DNA of 59,753 nucleotides. It comes from a virus. This document shows positions 9,858-38,112 of the stretch, piece by piece. Position 1 is the first letter of the stretch. Every line of letters starts with the position of its first letter. Under the pieces are notes generated by a model. That model saw nothing but the letters and a program-made list of their open reading frames with translations. It made no database searches and was not told the origin of the DNA. A program made the translations under genes and the position numbers. The stretch lies in UHGV virus genome UHGV-0209512; one strand, written 5' to 3'.

Positions 9858-10325
9858 TTATTGAATTGAACCGCGATCAATTAACCATTGTTTCGCGTGC
9901 GCTTTAAAAATAATGCGATAGTCATCAAGACTAATCTCCGCGCGGATGGAATCTTTAACTTCGTACCACTGCCACTCGCCATTGCTAAAGACAACTGGAT
10001 TGAGTGGTAGAACAACCTTCCATCCTTTACGTTCTATTTTATACATCAGAACTGGATATCTTCCAAGCTCTTTAGCCGATTGAACAGTCTGCTTCCACCA
10101 TGTGTTCACCTGTGGTGTAGCATGGTTTTTTACTTCAACCGCATGGTGGCATGTATTGCTAATGTCGCAACCACCGACCGCACTTTGATTCTGGTTACGC
10201 TGAGCAATAGGTTTCTCCGGTAACCGCATCCCCAAACACACCCAACACTCGGCATAAATTGCATTAAAGAAATCGCATACTTCCCGCTCACCGCGTTGAC
10301 CTTTAGCGCGAATATTTACTGCCAT
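9858..10325 (-). CDS. Hjc-like PD-(D/E)xK endonuclease (putative Holliday junction resolvase)
   Basis: ORF 9858..10415 trimmed to ATG 10323-10325 preceded by GGAGA; KGQRGEREV and GGCDI ... AVEVKNH resemble archaeal Hjc-type resolvase motifs. Confidence 0.45.
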   Translation of the reverse strand: MAVNIRAKGQRGEREVCDFFNAIYAECWVCLGMRLPEKPIAQRNQNQSAVGGCDISNTCHHAVEVKNHATPQVNTWWKQTVQSAKELGRYPVLMYKIERKGWKVVLPLNPVVFSNGEWQWYEVKDSIRAEISLDDYRIIFKAHAKQWLIDRGSIQ

Positions 10326-33257: not shown

Positions 33258-34181
33258 ATGGCTACAGGTTCACGTTATTCGTGTTATTACGTCAAAGAAG
33301 ATGTGAGCAACACAACTCCAGCGAACGCAAAGTTTACCCCGTTTCGTGTGACGAGTTCCGGTCTGGATATTAACATCGCGACGCTGGAGTCTGAAGAACT
33401 GCGTGATGACGCAGAAACCGCAGACTTCCGTCTTGGCGCTCGAAGCGTTGAAGGTACGGTAACGGGCGAAATGTCCTTCGGTACGTTTGACGACCTCATT
33501 GCGGCAGCGCTGCGCGGTGAATGGCAGGAGAACGTCCTTAAAGGTGGTATTGTTCGCCAGTCATTTACTTTTGTAGACTATAACGCAGATCTGCCATCAG
33601 GTAAATACACAATCTATCGCGGTTGTGAAGTTAACAGCATGACTTTCGCATTGTCAGCTGAAAACATGACCACAGTAGAGTTTGGTATTGTTGGTCGCTC
33701 CATGGAAATTGCTGAATCACTTCCTGCCGGTGCTTCCATTAAAGCTCGTACAACTTCTTCACCGATGGACGGCTTCTCCGGTCGCTTGCTGGAAGGCGGT
33801 CAGGAAATTAGCGTTATTACGGAAATCGGTCTTACCGTTGAAAACGATATCTCCCCGCGCTTCGTTGTTGGCTCGAAGTTCTCCATTGAACCGTCTGCTG
33901 GTCGCCGTGCTGTAACTGGTACAGCTAACGTTTACTTCCTGGATAACAAACTGCGTAAGAAGTATCTGGATGAAGTGGAAACTTCAATCAAGTTTGATCT
34001 GATTGACCCAAGCAATCCGCAACAAAAATACACCGTGGAAATCCCTCGCGTGAAATTCACAGAGGCTCCGCGTCCTATTGACGGTGAAGGCGATATCATG
34101 CTTAATATGGGCTACCGCGGATTGCTGGACCCAACAACCGCAAGTTCCATCAAAATTACCCGCGTTTTAGCGGCAGCATAA
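33258..34181 (+). CDS. Major tail (tube) protein
   Basis: 307-aa ORF directly upstream of the chaperone/frameshift/tape-measure unit. Confidence 0.55.
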   Translation: MATGSRYSCYYVKEDVSNTTPANAKFTPFRVTSSGLDINIATLESEELRDDAETADFRLGARSVEGTVTGEMSFGTFDDLIAAALRGEWQENVLKGGIVRQSFTFVDYNADLPSGKYTIYRGCEVNSMTFALSAENMTTVEFGIVGRSMEIAESLPAGASIKARTTSSPMDGFSGRLLEGGQEISVITEIGLTVENDISPRFVVGSKFSIEPSAGRRAVTGTANVYFLDNKLRKKYLDEVETSIKFDLIDPSNPQQKYTVEIPRVKFTEAPRPIDGEGDIMLNMGYRGLLDPTTASSIKITRVLAAA

Positions 34182-34190
34182 GGATAAGAA

Positions 34191-34598
34191 ATGACCGACA
34201 CCAAAAAAGCCAAAGTTGCAGTAGCTAAAAGCTTCCGTGATTTTAAAACTGTGAGCCGGGCAAATGACCCGGCAAACACTAAGCCAATGAATGTGGTTAT
34301 TCCTGGTGTAGGCGACACTGGCGAAAAACTCTACATTCGTAGCCGCTACTGCACAGAGTATCGTGACGCAGAATTGAAAGCACAGCGTCAACTGTTGGCG
34401 CTTATGCAGGGTAAAGACGGTGAAGTAACGGATGCTATGAAGGAAGATATCCTTACCCGTTCACTGTGTAACCTTGTAGCAGGTTGGACTTTTGACGAGC
34501 CACCGACTGTTGATAACGTGTTTGAGTTCTTAACGGAGAACCCAACTGTCCGAGAAGACCTTAACGTATTTGCCGCTAAAGATAGTAATTTTTTCTAA
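34191..34598 (+). CDS. Tail assembly chaperone (G-like)
   Basis: 135-aa acidic protein immediately upstream of tape measure; ends in a slippery heptamer. Confidence 0.6.
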   Translation: MTDTKKAKVAVAKSFRDFKTVSRANDPANTKPMNVVIPGVGDTGEKLYIRSRYCTEYRDAELKAQRQLLALMQGKDGEVTDAMKEDILTRSLCNLVAGWTFDEPPTVDNVFEFLTENPTVREDLNVFAAKDSNFF

Positions 34599-34996
34599 AA
34601 GCGCGCAGACAGTTAATTGATAAGAAGATCCTCCAATGGGAACTAAATAGCAAAGTCCCCGGCGGGGGATCTTCTTTATTATCGCAACTGCAAAAGGTTG
34701 AGGAACAGTCTGGTAAGACGCCACCTAAGCTTAAAGAATATCGGGAAAAGGAAATACCGCTTTGCTTCGAATATCTATCTACTTTATTTGATGATATCTA
34801 CACTGGAGGAGATTTTAGTTATACAGAATTGCACAGCTATCAAGTGACAATGGGCTTACGTCTTCAACCGTACGAATGCGAAATACTGCGGCAGCTATGG
34901 CTTGAAAAGCGCGTGTCAGAAGCTGAACAAAATGCTAAACTCATGGAAAGTCAAATGCAAAATCAAAATAAAGGTAGAAGAAAAAGGAGAAGATAA
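34191..34996 (+). CDS. Tail assembly chaperone -1 frameshift fusion product (GT-like), predicted
   Basis: Joins 34191..34595 to the -1 frame 34595..34996; the -1 frame was translated codon by codon with no stop and ends next to the tape measure ATG. Confidence 0.5.
34589..34595 (+). other. Slippery heptamer T_TTT_TTC for programmed -1 ribosomal frameshift
   Basis: Zero-frame codons AAT TTT TTC TAA; after a -1 slip the frame stays open for 133 codons to TAA at 34994-34996. Confidence 0.55.
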
Positions 34997-37900
34997 TGGC
35001 CGAAACCGCTTCGCTAGTAATCAGAGTTGACGCGAGAGGGATTAGTACCGCGGACTCCATGTTGCGGAACTTAGCGCGTACAGGTGACACAGCGGAGCGG
35101 TCTGCTCAACGTGTTACCTCCAGCTATAAAACATTGTCTAACACATCTAACGAACTTGCAACTGTCACAAGTCGTTTGGATGCTGCAATTGTAGGAATGA
35201 TTAGCGTTGACACTATTAGCCGTGTTATTTCGCTATCGGACTCCTGGACTATCCTCACCAACAAACTTGAACTGGCTCGTACGGGTAATGAAACCGTTGC
35301 GGATGCGCAGCAACGCGTGTTTGATATTGCCCAGCGGTCACGTACAAGCTTGGAAGCGACTGCAACTCTGTACTCCCGTCTCCAGCGTGCGATGAAGAAT
35401 ACTGGTATGACTGGTATGGAGCTTGGACGTATCACGGAAACAATTAACAAAGCAATGATTGTTTCCGGTGCAACATCCCATGAAGCAAGTGCTGCTCTTA
35501 TTCAGTTTTCGCAAGCGATGGCATCCGGTGTTTTGCGCGGGGATGAATTCCGATCTGTTGCAGAACAGGCACCGCGCTTAACTCAAATCATGTCCGATTC
35601 GTTAGGCGTTACCATTGGACAATTGCGTGAGCTGGCGTACAGCGGAAAGTTAACATCAGATGTGGTTATCAAATCGTTGTCTGGTGCTGCGGATACAATT
35701 GATAAAGAATTTAGCCGCACTATGCCAACGTTCAACCAGCAATGGACAGTTGCAACAAACAACCTGACTAAGTTTATGGGTGAATCCCAAAAGACTCAAG
35801 GTGCGGTTGCTGCATTGGGACAGACGTTTGTTGCATTATCCGAAAACTTAGGAACGGTTGTAACGGTTGGTTCAGCTTTAGCCACAGTGATTACCGCCCG
35901 TATCATTACGGCAATGCTTGCTAAGACTAAAGCGTCTATAGCTGCTGCAAAAGCATCACGGATGGAAGCTGCACAAACGGCGGCAACTACGGCGGTGATG
36001 CAAAGCTCTATTGGCGTTACCGCACAGAAAGCGGCTGCGGATCGTGCTGCTTCGCTTGCATCGTTGCAGGTGGCACGCGGTGCATTAGCAGTTGCTAAAG
36101 GTACGGCAGCGGAAGCAGGCGCACGTCTTGCTCTTATTAACGCTACCCGTGCGCATTCTGCGGCAATTATGGCGGACGTACAAGCGCGGCAAGCGCTCAA
36201 TGCTGCGCTCAATGCAACCGTACCAGCCGCAAGCCGAGCCGCTACAGCAATGAGCGTGCTGCGCGGTGCTATGGGGTTAATTGGTGGTCCTGTTGGTGTA
36301 GCAATGCTGGCAGCGGGTGCAATTTACTCCTATAAAGCGTCGCTGGAAGCTGGTCGTGCGGAAAACAATCAGTTTGCAGATAGTGTTGATAGTGTACGCG
36401 AAAAACTAATGCAGATGACGGAAGCTCAGCTGGCAGCTAACGCTGTCAAAGCTCGCGCAATACTTCCTGAACTTGAAGAGCAAATGAAGCGGGAACAGAC
36501 CGCTCTAAAATCTGCAACAGAAACGCAAAAGTTCTACGAAGCACAATTAAAACGTCGAGCTGCATCCGGTCGAGATACTGCTAGTGCGGAAAAGAACTTA
36601 CAGATTGCTACGGATAACGTCAAGCTAGCTGCTGAACGCGCGGAAGACGCACAACGTCGATATAACAATGTGCTTGAAATGACAAGCCCCGCTATAGAGA
36701 AAATAATCCCTCTAGCACGTCAGCTTGCTGCGGATATGAAGGCTGTCCTTAGCATTAAATCCGGTCCGTTAATTGACGAAAAAGTATTGGATCGCTTTAA
36801 AGGTCAACTCGGGGACGTTAACCGTGAAATTGATGTTAACACGGTTAAGGGTGCTGGCAATGCTCGCCAAGCTGCAATCCTTAGCGGGCTGTATCAAACG
36901 CTGGGCAAGGATGCGGATACATACGGAAGTCTTATTCGCAAAGTAGCTATGGGTCAGGATGTTAGCTCAGAGGCAACAAGCGAATCCGCTAAAGAGCTTG
37001 TTAAATACGCTCAAGATTTAGCCCAAGCTCTTGGCAAAAACTACGATCTTGAAGAAGCAGAGCGAAACCGGACTAAAGCTACAAAAGACGGTATTAAAGC
37101 GGAGCAACAAAACGCCAAAGTTATTGAGGATTTGCGAAACAAGCTTGATGAGGTAACCACAGGGGTTAAGGAAAACGCCAAAGCTAAGGCGCAAGCAGTA
37201 GCGCTTAATAAGCTCAATGCATCTGCGACGGCTGCGGAAAAAGCAGAAGTTGTAAGTCTTGCTGCTGCAATCTACGATGCAGAAGAAGCTCAGAAGAAAC
37301 TGGATGAACGCAAGAAGAATCGTAAGTTTGCTCAAGGCTTGTTAGATGAAGGTATGACGGACTATGAAAAAATTGCGTATGAGCAGAACACTAAGATTGC
37401 AGAACTCAATGCTAAGCAACGAGCGGATGACCTAGCTTATTATCAACTTTACGAAGACGCTAAAACCCAAGTATTGAAAAAAGCAAGTATGGAAAGGGAA
37501 AATCTGGATAAAGTTCTTATGAACCGAATGATATCCTTTTCTCAGGAATCCTTGGGTATTATACTGTCTGGACTGGAAGAAGGTGTTAGTAAACAAAACT
37601 TTATTTATAAAGCGATGTTTGCTGCACAGAAAGCAATGCAAATTCCGTCAATATTGGCAAACACTGAAACCGCTGCATCTGCTGCCCTTGCATGGGGTAC
37701 TCAGCAAGGTGGTGCGACGATGGGCGCTGCAATGGCGGGTATTGTGAAAGCTATGGGTTATGCGTCGGCCGCTACTGTGGGTGGCTTAGCAATCGCTGGT
37801 ATGGCGCATGACGGTATTGATAATGTCCCACGCGAAGGTACATGGTTATTGGATAAAGGTGAACGTGTACTTAATGCCCCGTCTAATGACAAATTAAATC

Positions 37901-38112
37901 GATTCCTGGATAGCCAAGCTTCACAACAAGGTGGCGTGAATATGTCCGGTGGTGTTAGCATTGTTCAGTATATCACGGTGCAAGGAAATGGCGATGCTGC
38001 ACTCACGCAAGCCATGCAGCAAGCAGCTCGTGATGGTGCGGAGCAGGGATATAATAAAGTTCTTAGTGACTTTGCATCCCGAGGAACAATTCGTAGAACT
38101 GCAATGGGGTAA
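34996..38112 (+). CDS. Tail tape measure protein
   Basis: 1038 aa, Ala/Gln-rich helical protein downstream of the chaperone pair. Confidence 0.8.
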   Translation: MAETASLVIRVDARGISTADSMLRNLARTGDTAERSAQRVTSSYKTLSNTSNELATVTSRLDAAIVGMISVDTISRVISLSDSWTILTNKLELARTGNETVADAQQRVFDIAQRSRTSLEATATLYSRLQRAMKNTGMTGMELGRITETINKAMIVSGATSHEASAALIQFSQAMASGVLRGDEFRSVAEQAPRLTQIMSDSLGVTIGQLRELAYSGKLTSDVVIKSLSGAADTIDKEFSRTMPTFNQQWTVATNNLTKFMGESQKTQGAVAALGQTFVALSENLGTVVTVGSALATVITARIITAMLAKTKASIAAAKASRMEAAQTAATTAVMQSSIGVTAQKAAADRAASLASLQVARGALAVAKGTAAEAGARLALINATRAHSAAIMADVQARQALNAALNATVPAASRAATAMSVLRGAMGLIGGPVGVAMLAAGAIYSYKASLEAGRAENNQFADSVDSVREKLMQMTEAQLAANAVKARAILPELEEQMKREQTALKSATETQKFYEAQLKRRAASGRDTASAEKNLQIATDNVKLAAERAEDAQRRYNNVLEMTSPAIEKIIPLARQLAADMKAVLSIKSGPLIDEKVLDRFKGQLGDVNREIDVNTVKGAGNARQAAILSGLYQTLGKDADTYGSLIRKVAMGQDVSSEATSESAKELVKYAQDLAQALGKNYDLEEAERNRTKATKDGIKAEQQNAKVIEDLRNKLDEVTTGVKENAKAKAQAVALNKLNASATAAEKAEVVSLAAAIYDAEEAQKKLDERKKNRKFAQGLLDEGMTDYEKIAYEQNTKIAELNAKQRADDLAYYQLYEDAKTQVLKKASMERENLDKVLMNRMISFSQESLGIILSGLEEGVSKQNFIYKAMFAAQKAMQIPSILANTETAASAALAWGTQQGGATMGAAMAGIVKAMGYASAATVGGLAIAGMAHDGIDNVPREGTWLLDKGERVLNAPSNDKLNRFLDSQASQQGGVNMSGGVSIVQYITVQGNGDAALTQAMQQAARDGAEQGYNKVLSDFASRGTIRRTAMG

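What the first reader, a model, noticed from the sequence alone, without database searches (positions are those of the whole stretch)
34589..34996. Programmed -1 frameshift joining the tail assembly chaperone to a 133-codon extension
Seen in sequence: the chaperone ORF ends AAT TTT TTC TAA, containing the slippery heptamer T_TTT_TTC. The -1 frame is open without any stop from 34595 to TAA at 34994-34996, which overlaps the tape measure ATG; the extension has no strong internal start. Established knowledge: long-tailed phages conserve a G/GT-type frameshift at exactly this position.
Basis: partly seen in the sequence, partly recalled or inferred. Interest (0 to 1): 0.45.

Follow-up and report, generated by a model that had tools for sequence, protein, structure and literature searches.

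The report
Tail chaperone −1 frameshift, already annotated
This is the ordinary lambda G/GT-type programmed −1 ribosomal frameshift that makes a long and a short tail-assembly chaperone in a Seurat-like E. coli phage; it is real on sequence evidence and strongly conserved, but already annotated in the type phage of the genus.

Summary
The 135-codon chaperone ORF (34191-34598) ends AAT TTT TTC TAA. The −1 frame has a stop at 34586-88, then stays open from 34589 to TAA 34994-96, which overlaps the tape-measure ATG at 34996. The two frames therefore overlap by exactly the 7-nt slippery heptamer T_TTT_TTC.

The window is a Seuratvirus (99.9% identical to phage phiG7). The extension is under purifying selection in the −1 frame, including its first 78 codons, which contain no start codon. 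It matches Pfam Phage_TAC_18. PHROG 569 covers both halves collinearly.

An in-phase T_TTT_TT[C/A] sits at the homologous junction in all 41 loci examined, from at least eight genus-level groups including GC-rich Pseudomonas and Xanthomonas phages.

GenBank records of phage Seurat and SA126VB already carry the joined CDS, Seurat's with "ribosomal slippage" noted at the same nucleotide, so the feature is already known. No experimental proof was found for this lineage.

One side observation is less ordinary. A very stable hairpin (34618-34685) lies 22 nt downstream. Synonymous variation is suppressed over the heptamer, its 3' flank and the hairpin arms, and the 9g group shows compensatory pairs. 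It is too far downstream to be a canonical stimulator, and its function is open.

The parts
33258..34181 (+). Tail tube (major tail) protein gene, the upstream neighbour that fixes the synteny
   Evidence: Pfam PF18906 Phage_tube_2, E 4.9e-43; PHROG 290
34191..34598 (+). G-like tail assembly (tape measure) chaperone ORF, 135 aa, 0 frame, ends TTT TTC TAA
   Evidence: PHROG 569 (E 2.8e-26, profile 11-126) and PHROG 313 'tail assembly chaperone' (3.2e-11). Pfam Phage_TAC_4 only E 0.048, below its cut-off. Annotated 'tape measure chaperone' in Seurat.
34586..34588 (+). TAA stop in the -1 frame directly before the heptamer; it limits the possible shift window to 7 nt
34589..34595 (+). Slippery heptamer T_TTT_TTC (X_XXY_YYZ phase)
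   Evidence: The only T6[C/A] in each of 41 related loci, and always in phase at the junction. Motif class efficient in E. coli (PMC4066793).
34596..34598 (+). 0-frame TAA stop of the chaperone, immediately 3' of the heptamer
   Evidence: The adjacency is kept in Seuratvirus, Nonagvirus and yong3. The stop lies 3-54 nt further downstream in Vid5, K4PH164, PSTCR4, PMBT28, Kokobel2 and the Pseudomonas/Xanthomonas phages.
34595..34996 (+). -1 frame extension (T-like domain), 133 codons plus TAA. There is no start codon before TTG 34829.
   Evidence: Pfam PF23812 Phage_TAC_18 E 2e-9, 37.9 bits against a cut-off of 27. PHROG 569 profile 129-256, E 2.3e-46. Third-position bias of substitutions in the -1 frame.
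34191..34996 (+). Predicted 268-aa GT-like fusion: 34191..34595 read in the 0 frame, then 34595..34993 in the -1 frame, with base 34595 read twice. The equivalent join at 34592 gives the same protein.
   Evidence: Identical join in GenBank KM236243 CPT_Seurat14, slippage at 10236 = window 34592, and in OL960573 SA126VB_14. The conceptual fusions from 15 phages align collinearly.
34618..34685 (+). Stable hairpin inside the extension, 22 nt 3' of the heptamer. Its tip and U-rich tail score as terminator-like.
   Evidence: dG -34.3 kcal/mol, z -4.4. Terminator-like site 34655-34670. Synonymous variation suppressed on both arms. Hairpins of different sequence at about the same place in 9g-like phages, with compensatory pairs.
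34984..34989 (+). AAGGAG Shine-Dalgarno sequence for the tape measure gene, embedded in the codons of the basic C-terminal tail (RRKRRR) of the extension
   Evidence: Read from the sequence; the ribosome_binding_site feature at the homologous place in Seurat
34996..38112 (+). Tape measure protein gene (1038 aa); its ATG overlaps the TAA of the extension (TAATG)
   Evidence: Pfam TMP_3 E 8.5e-60; PHROG 339 E 1.8e-178

Best explanation
This is a programmed -1 ribosomal frameshift of the lambda G/GT type.

Most ribosomes translating the chaperone gene read ...AAU UUU UUC and terminate at UAA 34596-98. That gives the 135-aa G-like tape measure chaperone.

A minority slip back one base on U_UUU_UUC. 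The two tRNA-Phe re-pair from UUU-UUC to UUU-UUU, or the P-site tRNA-Phe slips while the adjacent stop codon waits in the A site. These ribosomes then read CUA AAA GCG... for 133 more codons and stop at UAA 34994-96. The product is a 268-aa GT-like fusion.

The fusion's stop overlaps the tape measure ATG (UAAUG), and the tape measure Shine-Dalgarno sequence lies in the last codons of the extension.

By analogy with lambda (inference, not tested here), the shared N-terminal part coats the tape measure protein. The rarer T part recruits tail tube subunits, so the fixed slip frequency sets the G:GT ratio. Neither protein ends up in the virion.

Shown here: the frame architecture, the motif, selection in the -1 frame, homology of both halves to chaperone families, and conservation across relatives. 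Inferred: that slippage is ribosomal, its efficiency, and the protein functions.
For: - Architecture: the frames overlap by exactly the heptamer.
- Selection in the -1 frame: among 8 Seuratvirus sequences up to 13% divergent, 37 of 52 variable columns of the extension are third positions of the -1 frame. In the start-less first 78 codons the count is 22 of 28. Codon changes are 24-25 synonymous against 9 non-synonymous in the -1 frame, versus 1-2 against 33-35 in the other two frames.
- Homology: PHROG 569 covers G and the extension end to end, and Pfam Phage_TAC_18 hits the extension in all 13 aligned fusions.
- Conservation: fusions built by a -1 slip at the heptamer align without a gap at the junction (xFF motif) across Seuratvirus, Nonagvirus, Vidquintavirus, Craquatrovirus, Pamexvirus, Abidjanvirus and other Bradleyvirinae, plus unclassified Salmonella, Klebsiella and Providencia phages. 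Protein identity falls as low as about 21%.
- Motif: an in-phase T_TTT_TTC (T_TTT_TTA in one) is present in 41 of 41 loci, once per locus, even in GC-rich genomes.
- Called starts are unstable: gene callers place the 'start' of the downstream ORF at different internal TTG or ATG codons in different relatives, while the sequence upstream of those starts stays conserved in frame.
- Motif efficiency: U_UU.U_UU.C is in the efficient H_HH.U_UU.Y class in E. coli. It gives more than 0.1% shifting without a stimulator and is under-represented in E. coli genes (PMC4066793).
- Prior annotation: the joined CDS is already deposited for Seurat and SA126VB.
- G/GT biology: PMC5009743.
Against: - No protein-level evidence exists for this phage or, as far as I could find, for any Queuovirinae.
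- No canonical stimulator (a structure 5-9 nt downstream or an upstream SD-like element) is visible in the window. The strong hairpin starts 22 nt downstream.
- There is no detectable sequence similarity to lambda gpG or gpT.
- The G part reaches Pfam Phage_TAC_4 only below its cut-off.
- AlphaFold models were too poor to test the fold.
- Insertion of one U by RNA polymerase on the T6 run would give the same protein and cannot be excluded from sequence alone.
Confidence: 0.9

Rival explanations
1. The downstream ORF is a separate small gene translated from its own internal start (TTG 34829 or ATG 34850). This is how WildeMaa and CSP1C (48-aa ORF) and Skure (70-aa TTG ORF) annotate it. On this reading, 34599-34828 is untranslated spacer.
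For: Several GenBank records annotate it this way. Gene callers call T-like ORFs with their own starts in 9g, Vid5, yong3 and others.
Against: - The 78 codons before the first start codon evolve as coding sequence in the -1 frame (22 of 28 variable columns at third positions). They are conserved as protein down to about 20% overall identity.
- The Pfam PF23812 match begins about 43 codons upstream of TTG 34829, so an internal start would truncate the domain.
- The called starts fall at non-homologous positions in different relatives.
- No SD-like sequence precedes 34829 or 34850 in the sequence.
- This rival does not explain the universal in-phase heptamer.
Confidence: 0.03
2. The frame change is made on the mRNA. 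RNA polymerase stutters on the T6 run (T7 in 9g and the Pseudomonas phages) and inserts one extra U. A subset of transcripts then encodes GT in a single frame, and no ribosomal slippage is needed.
For: A homopolymeric T run is conserved in all 41 loci. One inserted U puts the ribosome in exactly the observed frame (reading). Transcriptional slippage is documented for some bacterial and IS genes (PMC5009743).
Against: - From my own knowledge, not tested here: efficient slippage by bacterial RNA polymerase needs runs of about 8-9 or more, and the run here is 6-7.
- The run is always in X_XXY_YYZ phase and always followed by C (or A). Ribosomal re-pairing requires that, and transcriptional stuttering does not.
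- The preceding codon always ends in T whatever amino acid it encodes (N, L, H or D).
Confidence: 0.05
3. The open -1 frame and the heptamer are a coincidence or a decayed remnant; only the 135-aa protein is made, and the 400-nt stretch is non-coding.
For: The closest record, phiG7 (99.9% identical), annotates nothing between the chaperone and the tape measure gene.
Against: - P(133 open codons) is about 1e-3.
- Selection acts in the -1 frame.
- There are significant Pfam and PHROG hits.
- The arrangement is conserved across distant phage genera.
Confidence: 0.01

Closest known systems
Phage lambda gpG / gpGT tail assembly chaperones (Levin, Hendrix & Casjens 1993; Xu, Hendrix & Duda 2004, 2013, 2014; summarised in PMC5009743)
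   Same: - Two overlapping ORFs lie between the major tail/tube gene and the tape measure gene.
- The second ORF is in the -1 frame and has no usable start of its own.
- The shift occurs on a heptamer at the very end of the first ORF.
- The short product is about 140 aa and the fusion about 270-280 aa.
- No canonically spaced stimulator is visible in the window (that lambda needs none is from my own knowledge of Levin et al. 1993).
   Different: - The slippery sequence is U_UUU_UUC, not lambda's G_GGA_AAG.
- The 0-frame stop directly abuts the heptamer.
- There is no detectable sequence similarity to lambda gpG or gpT (hhalign probability about 1% or less).
- The T part belongs to Pfam Phage_TAC_18.
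- A conserved strong hairpin lies 22 nt downstream.
Escherichia phage Seurat CPT_Seurat13/14 'tape measure chaperone' (GenBank KM236243; genome announcement PMC4342423) and SA126VB_14/15 (OL960573)
   Same: It is the same gene pair, 97% identical in DNA and 99% in protein. Both records hold the joined CDS; in Seurat the slip is noted at 10236, the base homologous to window 34592, so the deposited product equals the fusion derived here.
   Different: Nothing substantive. That annotation is a prediction too; the announcement mentions a tape measure chaperone but neither the frameshift nor any experiment.
-1 PRF on U_UUU_UUC-type heptamers in E. coli IS elements and reporters (Sharma et al. 2014, PMC4066793)
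   Same: The same motif class (H_HH.U_UU.Y) and the same tRNA-Phe re-pairing logic. The motif is avoided in ordinary genes, and it is under-represented in this window as well.
   Different: IS elements usually pair the motif with a hairpin or pseudoknot 5-9 nt downstream, or with an upstream SD. In this window the first strong structure begins 22 nt downstream.

Membership tests
G/GT-type frameshifted tail assembly chaperone pair (Xu et al. 2004 definition) | Two ORFs located between the major tail (tube) gene and the tape measure gene, on the same strand | tested here: met
   Tube PF18906 at 33258-34181, G at 34191-34598, extension to 34996, TMP PF20155 at 34996-38112
G/GT-type frameshifted tail assembly chaperone pair (Xu et al. 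2004 definition) | The second ORF overlaps the end of the first in another frame and lacks its own credible start | tested here: met
   -1 frame, 7-nt overlap, first start codon 80 codons into the open -1 frame
G/GT-type frameshifted tail assembly chaperone pair (Xu et al. 2004 definition) | A slippery sequence in the overlap, in the correct phase | tested here: met
   T_TTT_TTC at 34589-34595; conserved in 41 of 41 loci
G/GT-type frameshifted tail assembly chaperone pair (Xu et al. 2004 definition) | The arrangement is conserved in relatives although the protein sequences diverge | tested here: met
   15 phages from at least 8 genus-level groups, protein identity down to about 21%
G/GT-type frameshifted tail assembly chaperone pair (Xu et al. 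2004 definition) | Both G and GT proteins are made, at a fixed low GT:G ratio | not testable with these tools
   Needs a western blot, mass spectrometry or a reporter assay
G/GT-type frameshifted tail assembly chaperone pair (Xu et al. 2004 definition) | The G part binds the tape measure protein, the T part binds the major tail protein, and both are absent from virions | not testable with these tools
   Inferred from lambda only (PMC5009743)
Pfam PF23812 Phage_TAC_18 | Score above the curated gathering cut-off (27 bits) | tested here: met
   Extension alone 37.9 bits, E 2e-9; 13 of 13 aligned fusions match, best E 4.9e-22
Pfam PF08748 Phage_TAC_4 (for the G part) | Score above the curated gathering cut-off (21.1 bits) | tested here: not met
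   14.3 bits, E 0.048 for the window protein; 5 of 13 relatives match at E <= 0.01, best 4.4e-4. This suggests distant relatedness only.
PHROG 569 / PHROG 313 (tail assembly chaperone families) | Significant profile match, collinear over both halves | tested here: met
   G matches profile 11-126 (2.8e-26) and the extension 129-256 (2.3e-46) of the 256-position PHROG 569; G also matches PHROG 313 at 3.2e-11
Lambda gpG/gpT sequence family | Detectable sequence or profile similarity to lambda gpG or gpT | tested here: not met
   hhalign probability 1.2% and 0.1%. The pair is an analogue in position and mechanism, not a demonstrable sequence homologue.
Tail assembly chaperone fold (spiral TAC fold) | Predicted or solved structure matches known TAC structures | tested here: inconclusive
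   AlphaFold2 models have mean pLDDT 46 (G) and 57 (T), too low for a fold search. No PDB sequence hit.
Canonical -1 PRF cassette (heptamer plus stimulator) | An RNA structure 5-9 nt 3' of the heptamer, or an SD-like element 6-17 nt 5' of it | tested here: not met
   The strong stem starts 22 nt downstream (a weak outer helix at 11-14 nt), and no SD-like sequence is seen upstream. The GC-rich relatives phiH1 and DoCa5 do have a long hairpin with a 6-nt spacer.

The most novel reading that the evidence does not exclude
The hairpin at 34618-34685, conserved at the nucleotide level, may be a functional RNA element written into the T coding sequence. So may its differently sequenced counterparts 28 nt downstream in 9g-like phages.

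One possibility is a non-canonically spaced modulator of frameshifting or termination. It could act when the abutting stop codon is in the A site; a weak outer helix, 34607-14 paired with 34704-11, would then sit 8 nt from the stop.

The other is an attenuator, processing site or mRNA-stabilising hairpin. Most ribosomes have already terminated at that point, so it could form there and set the expression step-down from tube and G to T and the tape measure protein.
Probability: 0.3. Interest if true: 0.4.

Novelty: already known. Interest (0 to 1): 0.12.

Why it matters
It matters mainly for annotation. The closest deposited genome (phiG7) leaves these 400 nt unannotated. Many Queuovirinae, Vidquintavirus, Craquatrovirus, Pamexvirus and Bradleyvirinae records call a truncated 'hypothetical protein' from an arbitrary internal TTG or ATG instead of the fusion. 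The strictly conserved in-phase T_TTT_TTC gives a simple rule for correcting them. Biologically it is one more instance of the conserved G/GT ratio-setting device. The only open question it raises is what the conserved downstream hairpin does.

Tried and rejected
- **Structure prediction.** AlphaFold2 models of G (8-sequence alignment) and of the extension (4 sequences) came out at mean pLDDT 46 and 57. I ran no fold searches because the matches would be meaningless.
- **Similarity to lambda.** Profile comparison with lambda gpG and gpT found nothing. A PDB sequence search found nothing relevant.
- **Rfam.** Only two sub-threshold minus-strand hairpin matches in 34300-35100, taken as chance.
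- **Locus search with a divergent alignment.** The search for related loci failed on the T alignment because it had no conserved 7-mer. Single-protein queries returned only 4, 10 and 1 loci.
- **Word-indexed protein search.** It found only 3 relatives of the extension and 8 of G. That is itself consistent with the start-less ORF rarely being called as a gene.
- **Hairpin as an intrinsic terminator.** Plausible for the Seuratvirus sequence, but the 9g-group hairpin has no U tract, so I did not adopt it as the common explanation.
- **Strand of the hairpin.** Both strands fold about equally well (-34.3 against -34.6 kcal/mol), so energy does not settle which strand carries the element.
- **Literature.** No paper in the library discusses or tests this frameshift in Queuovirinae.

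Full report
**1. The observation**

The ORF 34191-34598 encodes a 135-aa protein and ends GAT AGT AAT TTT TTC TAA.

In the -1 frame there is a TAA at 34586-88, directly before the run of T. That frame is then open through TTT TTT CTA AAA GCG ... for 135 codons until TAA 34994-96. The last A of that stop is the A of the ATG of a 1038-aa ORF, 34996-38112.

The region where a ribosome could pass from one frame to the other is therefore exactly seven bases, 34589-34595. Those seven bases are T_TTT_TTC in X_XXY_YYZ phase.

The first ATG, GTG or TTG in the -1 frame is TTG 34829, 80 codons into the open frame, and the first ATG is 34850.

This is not a chance pattern:
- Stop trinucleotides are 5.0% of the + strand, so a 133-codon open stretch has a probability of about 1e-3.
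- TTTTTTC is under-represented in the window, with 10 matches on both strands against 21 +/- 4.6 expected, and only four on the + strand.

**2. What the window is**

The 1-kb stretch around the site is 99.9% identical to Escherichia phage phiG7. It is 96-99% identical to about 30 other members of Seuratvirus (Queuovirinae), including the type phage Seurat.

The gene order is the canonical siphovirus tail module:
- tail tube gene 33258-34181 (Pfam Phage_tube_2, E 4.9e-43)
- the chaperone ORF
- the extension
- the tape measure gene (Pfam TMP_3, E 8.5e-60)

A related contig (L032) also carries a tail terminator gene upstream of the tube gene.

**3. Is the extension a translated protein in the -1 frame?**

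Three independent lines say yes.

(a) Substitution pattern. I compared eight Seuratvirus sequences that differ by up to 13%.
- Of the 52 variable columns in the extension, 37 fall on the third position of -1-frame codons.
- In the first 78 codons, which have no start codon, the count is 22 of 28.
- Against the two most divergent sequences there are 24-25 synonymous and 9 non-synonymous codon changes in the -1 frame.
- In either other frame the same comparison gives 1-2 synonymous and 33-35 non-synonymous changes.

(b) Homology.
- The extension matches Pfam PF23812 Phage_TAC_18 above the curated cut-off (37.9 bits, E 2e-9).
- PHROG 569 is a 256-position profile. It matches the chaperone at positions 11-126 and the extension at 129-256, so the family's profile spans both halves in order, like a fused product.

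(c) Distant relatives. A tblastn search with the conceptual fusion finds two-piece matches in 121 phage records. I fetched 14 of them, spanning these groups:
- Seuratvirus (Skure, Hafnia yong3)
- Nonagvirus (9g)
- unclassified Klebsiella Queuovirinae
- Vidquintavirus (Vid5)
- Craquatrovirus (PSTCR4)
- Pamexvirus (phiH1)
- Abidjanvirus (PaMx11)
- a Xanthomonas Bradleyvirinae phage
- unclassified Salmonella, Klebsiella and Providencia phages

In every one the long downstream ORF is in the -1 frame relative to the chaperone. It ends at, within a few bases of, or overlapping the tape measure start.

**4. The slippery site is the conserved element**

All 14 relatives have an in-phase T_TTT_TTC (T_TTT_TTA in Klebsiella phage K4PH164) inside the frame-overlap window.

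The 0-frame stop is less fixed. It abuts the heptamer in Seuratvirus and Nonagvirus, but lies 3-54 nt downstream in the others.

Fusions built by a -1 slip at the heptamer align collinearly, with no gap at the junction, around an xFF motif. Overall identity falls to about 21%.

I then added IMG/VR and Logan contigs. A blind scan of all 41 loci (38 distinct sequences) gave the following:
- Each locus holds exactly one T6[C/A] in its 1.2-4 kb.
- That site is always the one with at least 90 open codons upstream in phase and at least 90 open codons downstream in the -1 frame.

The two Phe codons are always TTT TTC, and the preceding codon always ends in T whichever amino acid it encodes (N, L, H or D). 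This holds even in GC-rich Pseudomonas and Xanthomonas phages. That is selection on the nucleotides, and in the phase ribosomal re-pairing needs.

Sharma et al. (PMC4066793) place U_UU.U_UU.C in the efficient H_HH.U_UU.Y class in E. coli. It shifts at more than 0.1% without any stimulator, is avoided in ordinary genes, and is used by IS elements.

**5. Mechanism**

The best-supported reading is a lambda G/GT-type -1 programmed ribosomal frameshift. Most ribosomes terminate at UAA 34596-98 and give the 135-aa chaperone. A minority slip on U_UUU_UUC and add 133 residues (LKARRQLIDKK ... KGRRKRRR), giving a 268-aa fusion.

The fusion's stop overlaps the tape measure ATG (TAATG). The tape measure Shine-Dalgarno sequence, AAGGAG at 34984-89, lies in the codons of the basic C-terminal tail.

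The protein functions are inferred from lambda only (PMC5009743): G coats the tape measure, T recruits tube subunits, the ratio is fixed by slip frequency, and neither protein is in the virion.

Two details remain open:
- Whether the slip is a tandem P/A-site slip, or a P-site slip while the abutting stop is in the A site.
- Whether a little transcriptional stuttering on the T6 run contributes. The strict phase and the conserved seventh base argue for the ribosome.

**6. Rivals**

Independent initiation at TTG 34829 or ATG 34850 is how WildeMaa, CSP1C and Skure annotate the region. Several results contradict it:
- Coding-type selection acts upstream of those codons.
- The Pfam domain starts about 43 codons before them.
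- The called starts fall at non-homologous positions in different relatives.

The 'non-coding spacer' reading, as in phiG7, is contradicted.

**7. Comparison with what is known**

GenBank KM236243 (phage Seurat) carries CPT_Seurat14, a two-piece joined CDS named 'tape measure chaperone'. OL960573 (SA126VB) has the same join. The finding is therefore already known as an annotation.

The genome announcement does not discuss the frameshift. I found no experimental test in this lineage.

The pair works like lambda G/GT, but it shows no detectable sequence similarity to lambda gpG or gpT. It belongs to different chaperone families: Phage_TAC_18 and PHROG 569/313. The G part reaches Phage_TAC_4 only below its cut-off.

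A test of the chaperone fold failed because the AlphaFold models were of low confidence.

**8. Side observation: a conserved hairpin**

The RNA from 34596 to 34700 folds into a long hairpin at 34618-34685 (GAUAAGAAGAUCCUCC ... GGGGGAUCUUCUUUAUUAUC). Its free energy is -34.3 kcal/mol, z = -4.4, and 0 of 200 shuffles fold as well. Its GC tip plus U-rich tail also scores as terminator-like.

Evidence that it is under selection:
- Among the eight Seuratvirus sequences there is no variable column from 34561 to 34650, and only three up to 34701. Elsewhere there are 6-9 per 30 nt.
- In a wider set of nine sequences, whose G proteins are 71-81% identical for the most distant, I counted codons with an invariant amino acid. 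Only 15 of 36 such codons show synonymous variation from 10 codons before the heptamer to 32 codons after it. Outside that region it is 55 of 65 (Fisher p = 1.3e-5).
- The silent codons are NFF|LKARR (the heptamer and the 15 nt after it), KKILQ and PGGGSS. The last two sets are the two arms of the stem.
- The 9g group has a hairpin of different sequence, 28 nt after the heptamer, with compensatory CG to UA and AU to GC pairs.
- yong3, K9PH25C2 and Vid5 also fold unusually well there, with z from -3.6 to -6.
- In GC-rich relatives, where the 0-frame stop is about 50 nt away, a long hairpin starts 6 nt after the heptamer, which is the canonical spacing.

Limits on interpretation:
- A 22-28 nt spacer is too long for a classical stimulator.
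- The 9g hairpin lacks a U tract, so 'terminator' is not a common explanation.
- Both strands fold equally well in the window.
- Rfam has nothing matching.

The function is unresolved. It could be a modulator of frameshifting or termination, an attenuator or processing site, or a DNA-level element.

**9. Verdict**

On novelty it is already known: a textbook mechanism, already annotated in the genus type phage. Interest is low, at 0.12. Practical value lies in fixing inconsistent annotations across several phage genera, and the conserved downstream hairpin is the only point that might repay an experiment.

Noticed in passing
window 34618-34685 (+), with the flanking invariant stretch 34589-34609: A very stable hairpin (dG -34.3 kcal/mol, z -4.4) lies 22 nt 3' of the slippery heptamer, inside the -1 extension. 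Synonymous variation is suppressed on the heptamer, the 15 nt after it and both stem arms (15 of 36 against 55 of 65 codons vary, p = 1.3e-5). Hairpins of different sequence sit at about the same place in 9g-like phages, with compensatory pairs. The spacing is too long for a canonical stimulator, and the function is unknown.
   Followed up: partly
window 34655-34680 (+): The tip of the hairpin (GTCCCCGGCGGGGGAT) followed by CTTCTTTATT scores as an intrinsic-terminator-like site inside the T coding sequence, 57 nt after the chaperone stop. It could attenuate transcription into the tape measure gene. It is not conserved as a terminator in the 9g group, which has no U tract.
   Followed up: partly
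L003 (phiG7), L002 (WildeMaa), L040 (CSP1C), L004 (Skure), L006 (9g), L008 (Vid5), L010-L016: Annotation of this locus is inconsistent across GenBank. It appears as nothing, as a 48-aa ATG ORF, as a 70-aa TTG ORF, or as 55-117-aa 'hypothetical proteins' from arbitrary internal starts. Among the 19 phage records whose annotation I inspected, only Seurat and SA126VB carry the joined CDS. All of them have the in-phase T_TTT_TT[C/A], so the frameshift is under-annotated in at least eight genus-level groups.
   Followed up: yes
L012 (phiH1) 1190-1250, L016 (DoCa5) 932-992, L014 (PaMx11) 1115-1170, L015 (Kokobel2) 1151-1200: In relatives where the 0-frame stop lies 18-54 nt after the heptamer, a hairpin is predicted to start about 6 nt after it, which is canonical -1 PRF spacing. 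In Seuratvirus and Nonagvirus the stop abuts the heptamer and the hairpin is 22-28 nt away. This suggests two different stimulatory contexts for one conserved heptamer.
   Followed up: partly
window 34966-34998: The extension ends in a strongly basic tail (KGRRKRRR). Its purine-rich codons (AGA AGA AAA AGG AGA AGA TAA) contain the AAGGAG Shine-Dalgarno sequence of the tape measure gene, and the stop overlaps its ATG (TAATG). The arrangement looks dual-constrained, and variability is also low in 34881-34996.
   Followed up: no
whole window, both strands: TTTTTTC is about two-fold under-represented (10 found, 21 +/- 4.6 expected, all 100 shuffles at or above 10). This is consistent with avoidance of a shift-prone motif in coding sequence.
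   Followed up: no
one search hit list (MH230177 Aeromonas phage SD04, KY982929 Cronobacter phage CSP1): Phages recorded as infecting Aeromonas schubertii and Cronobacter sakazakii are 98.3% identical to this E. coli Seuratvirus over the 1-kb query. The host labels may deserve a check.
   Followed up: no
window 34569-34609 (+): In a longer fold (34560-34720), the sequence just upstream of the heptamer (UUUGCCGCU) pairs with the invariant AGCGCGCAG just downstream. That places the slippery site in a loop. The relevance is unclear, because the upstream arm is inside the ribosome at the time of the shift.
   Followed up: no
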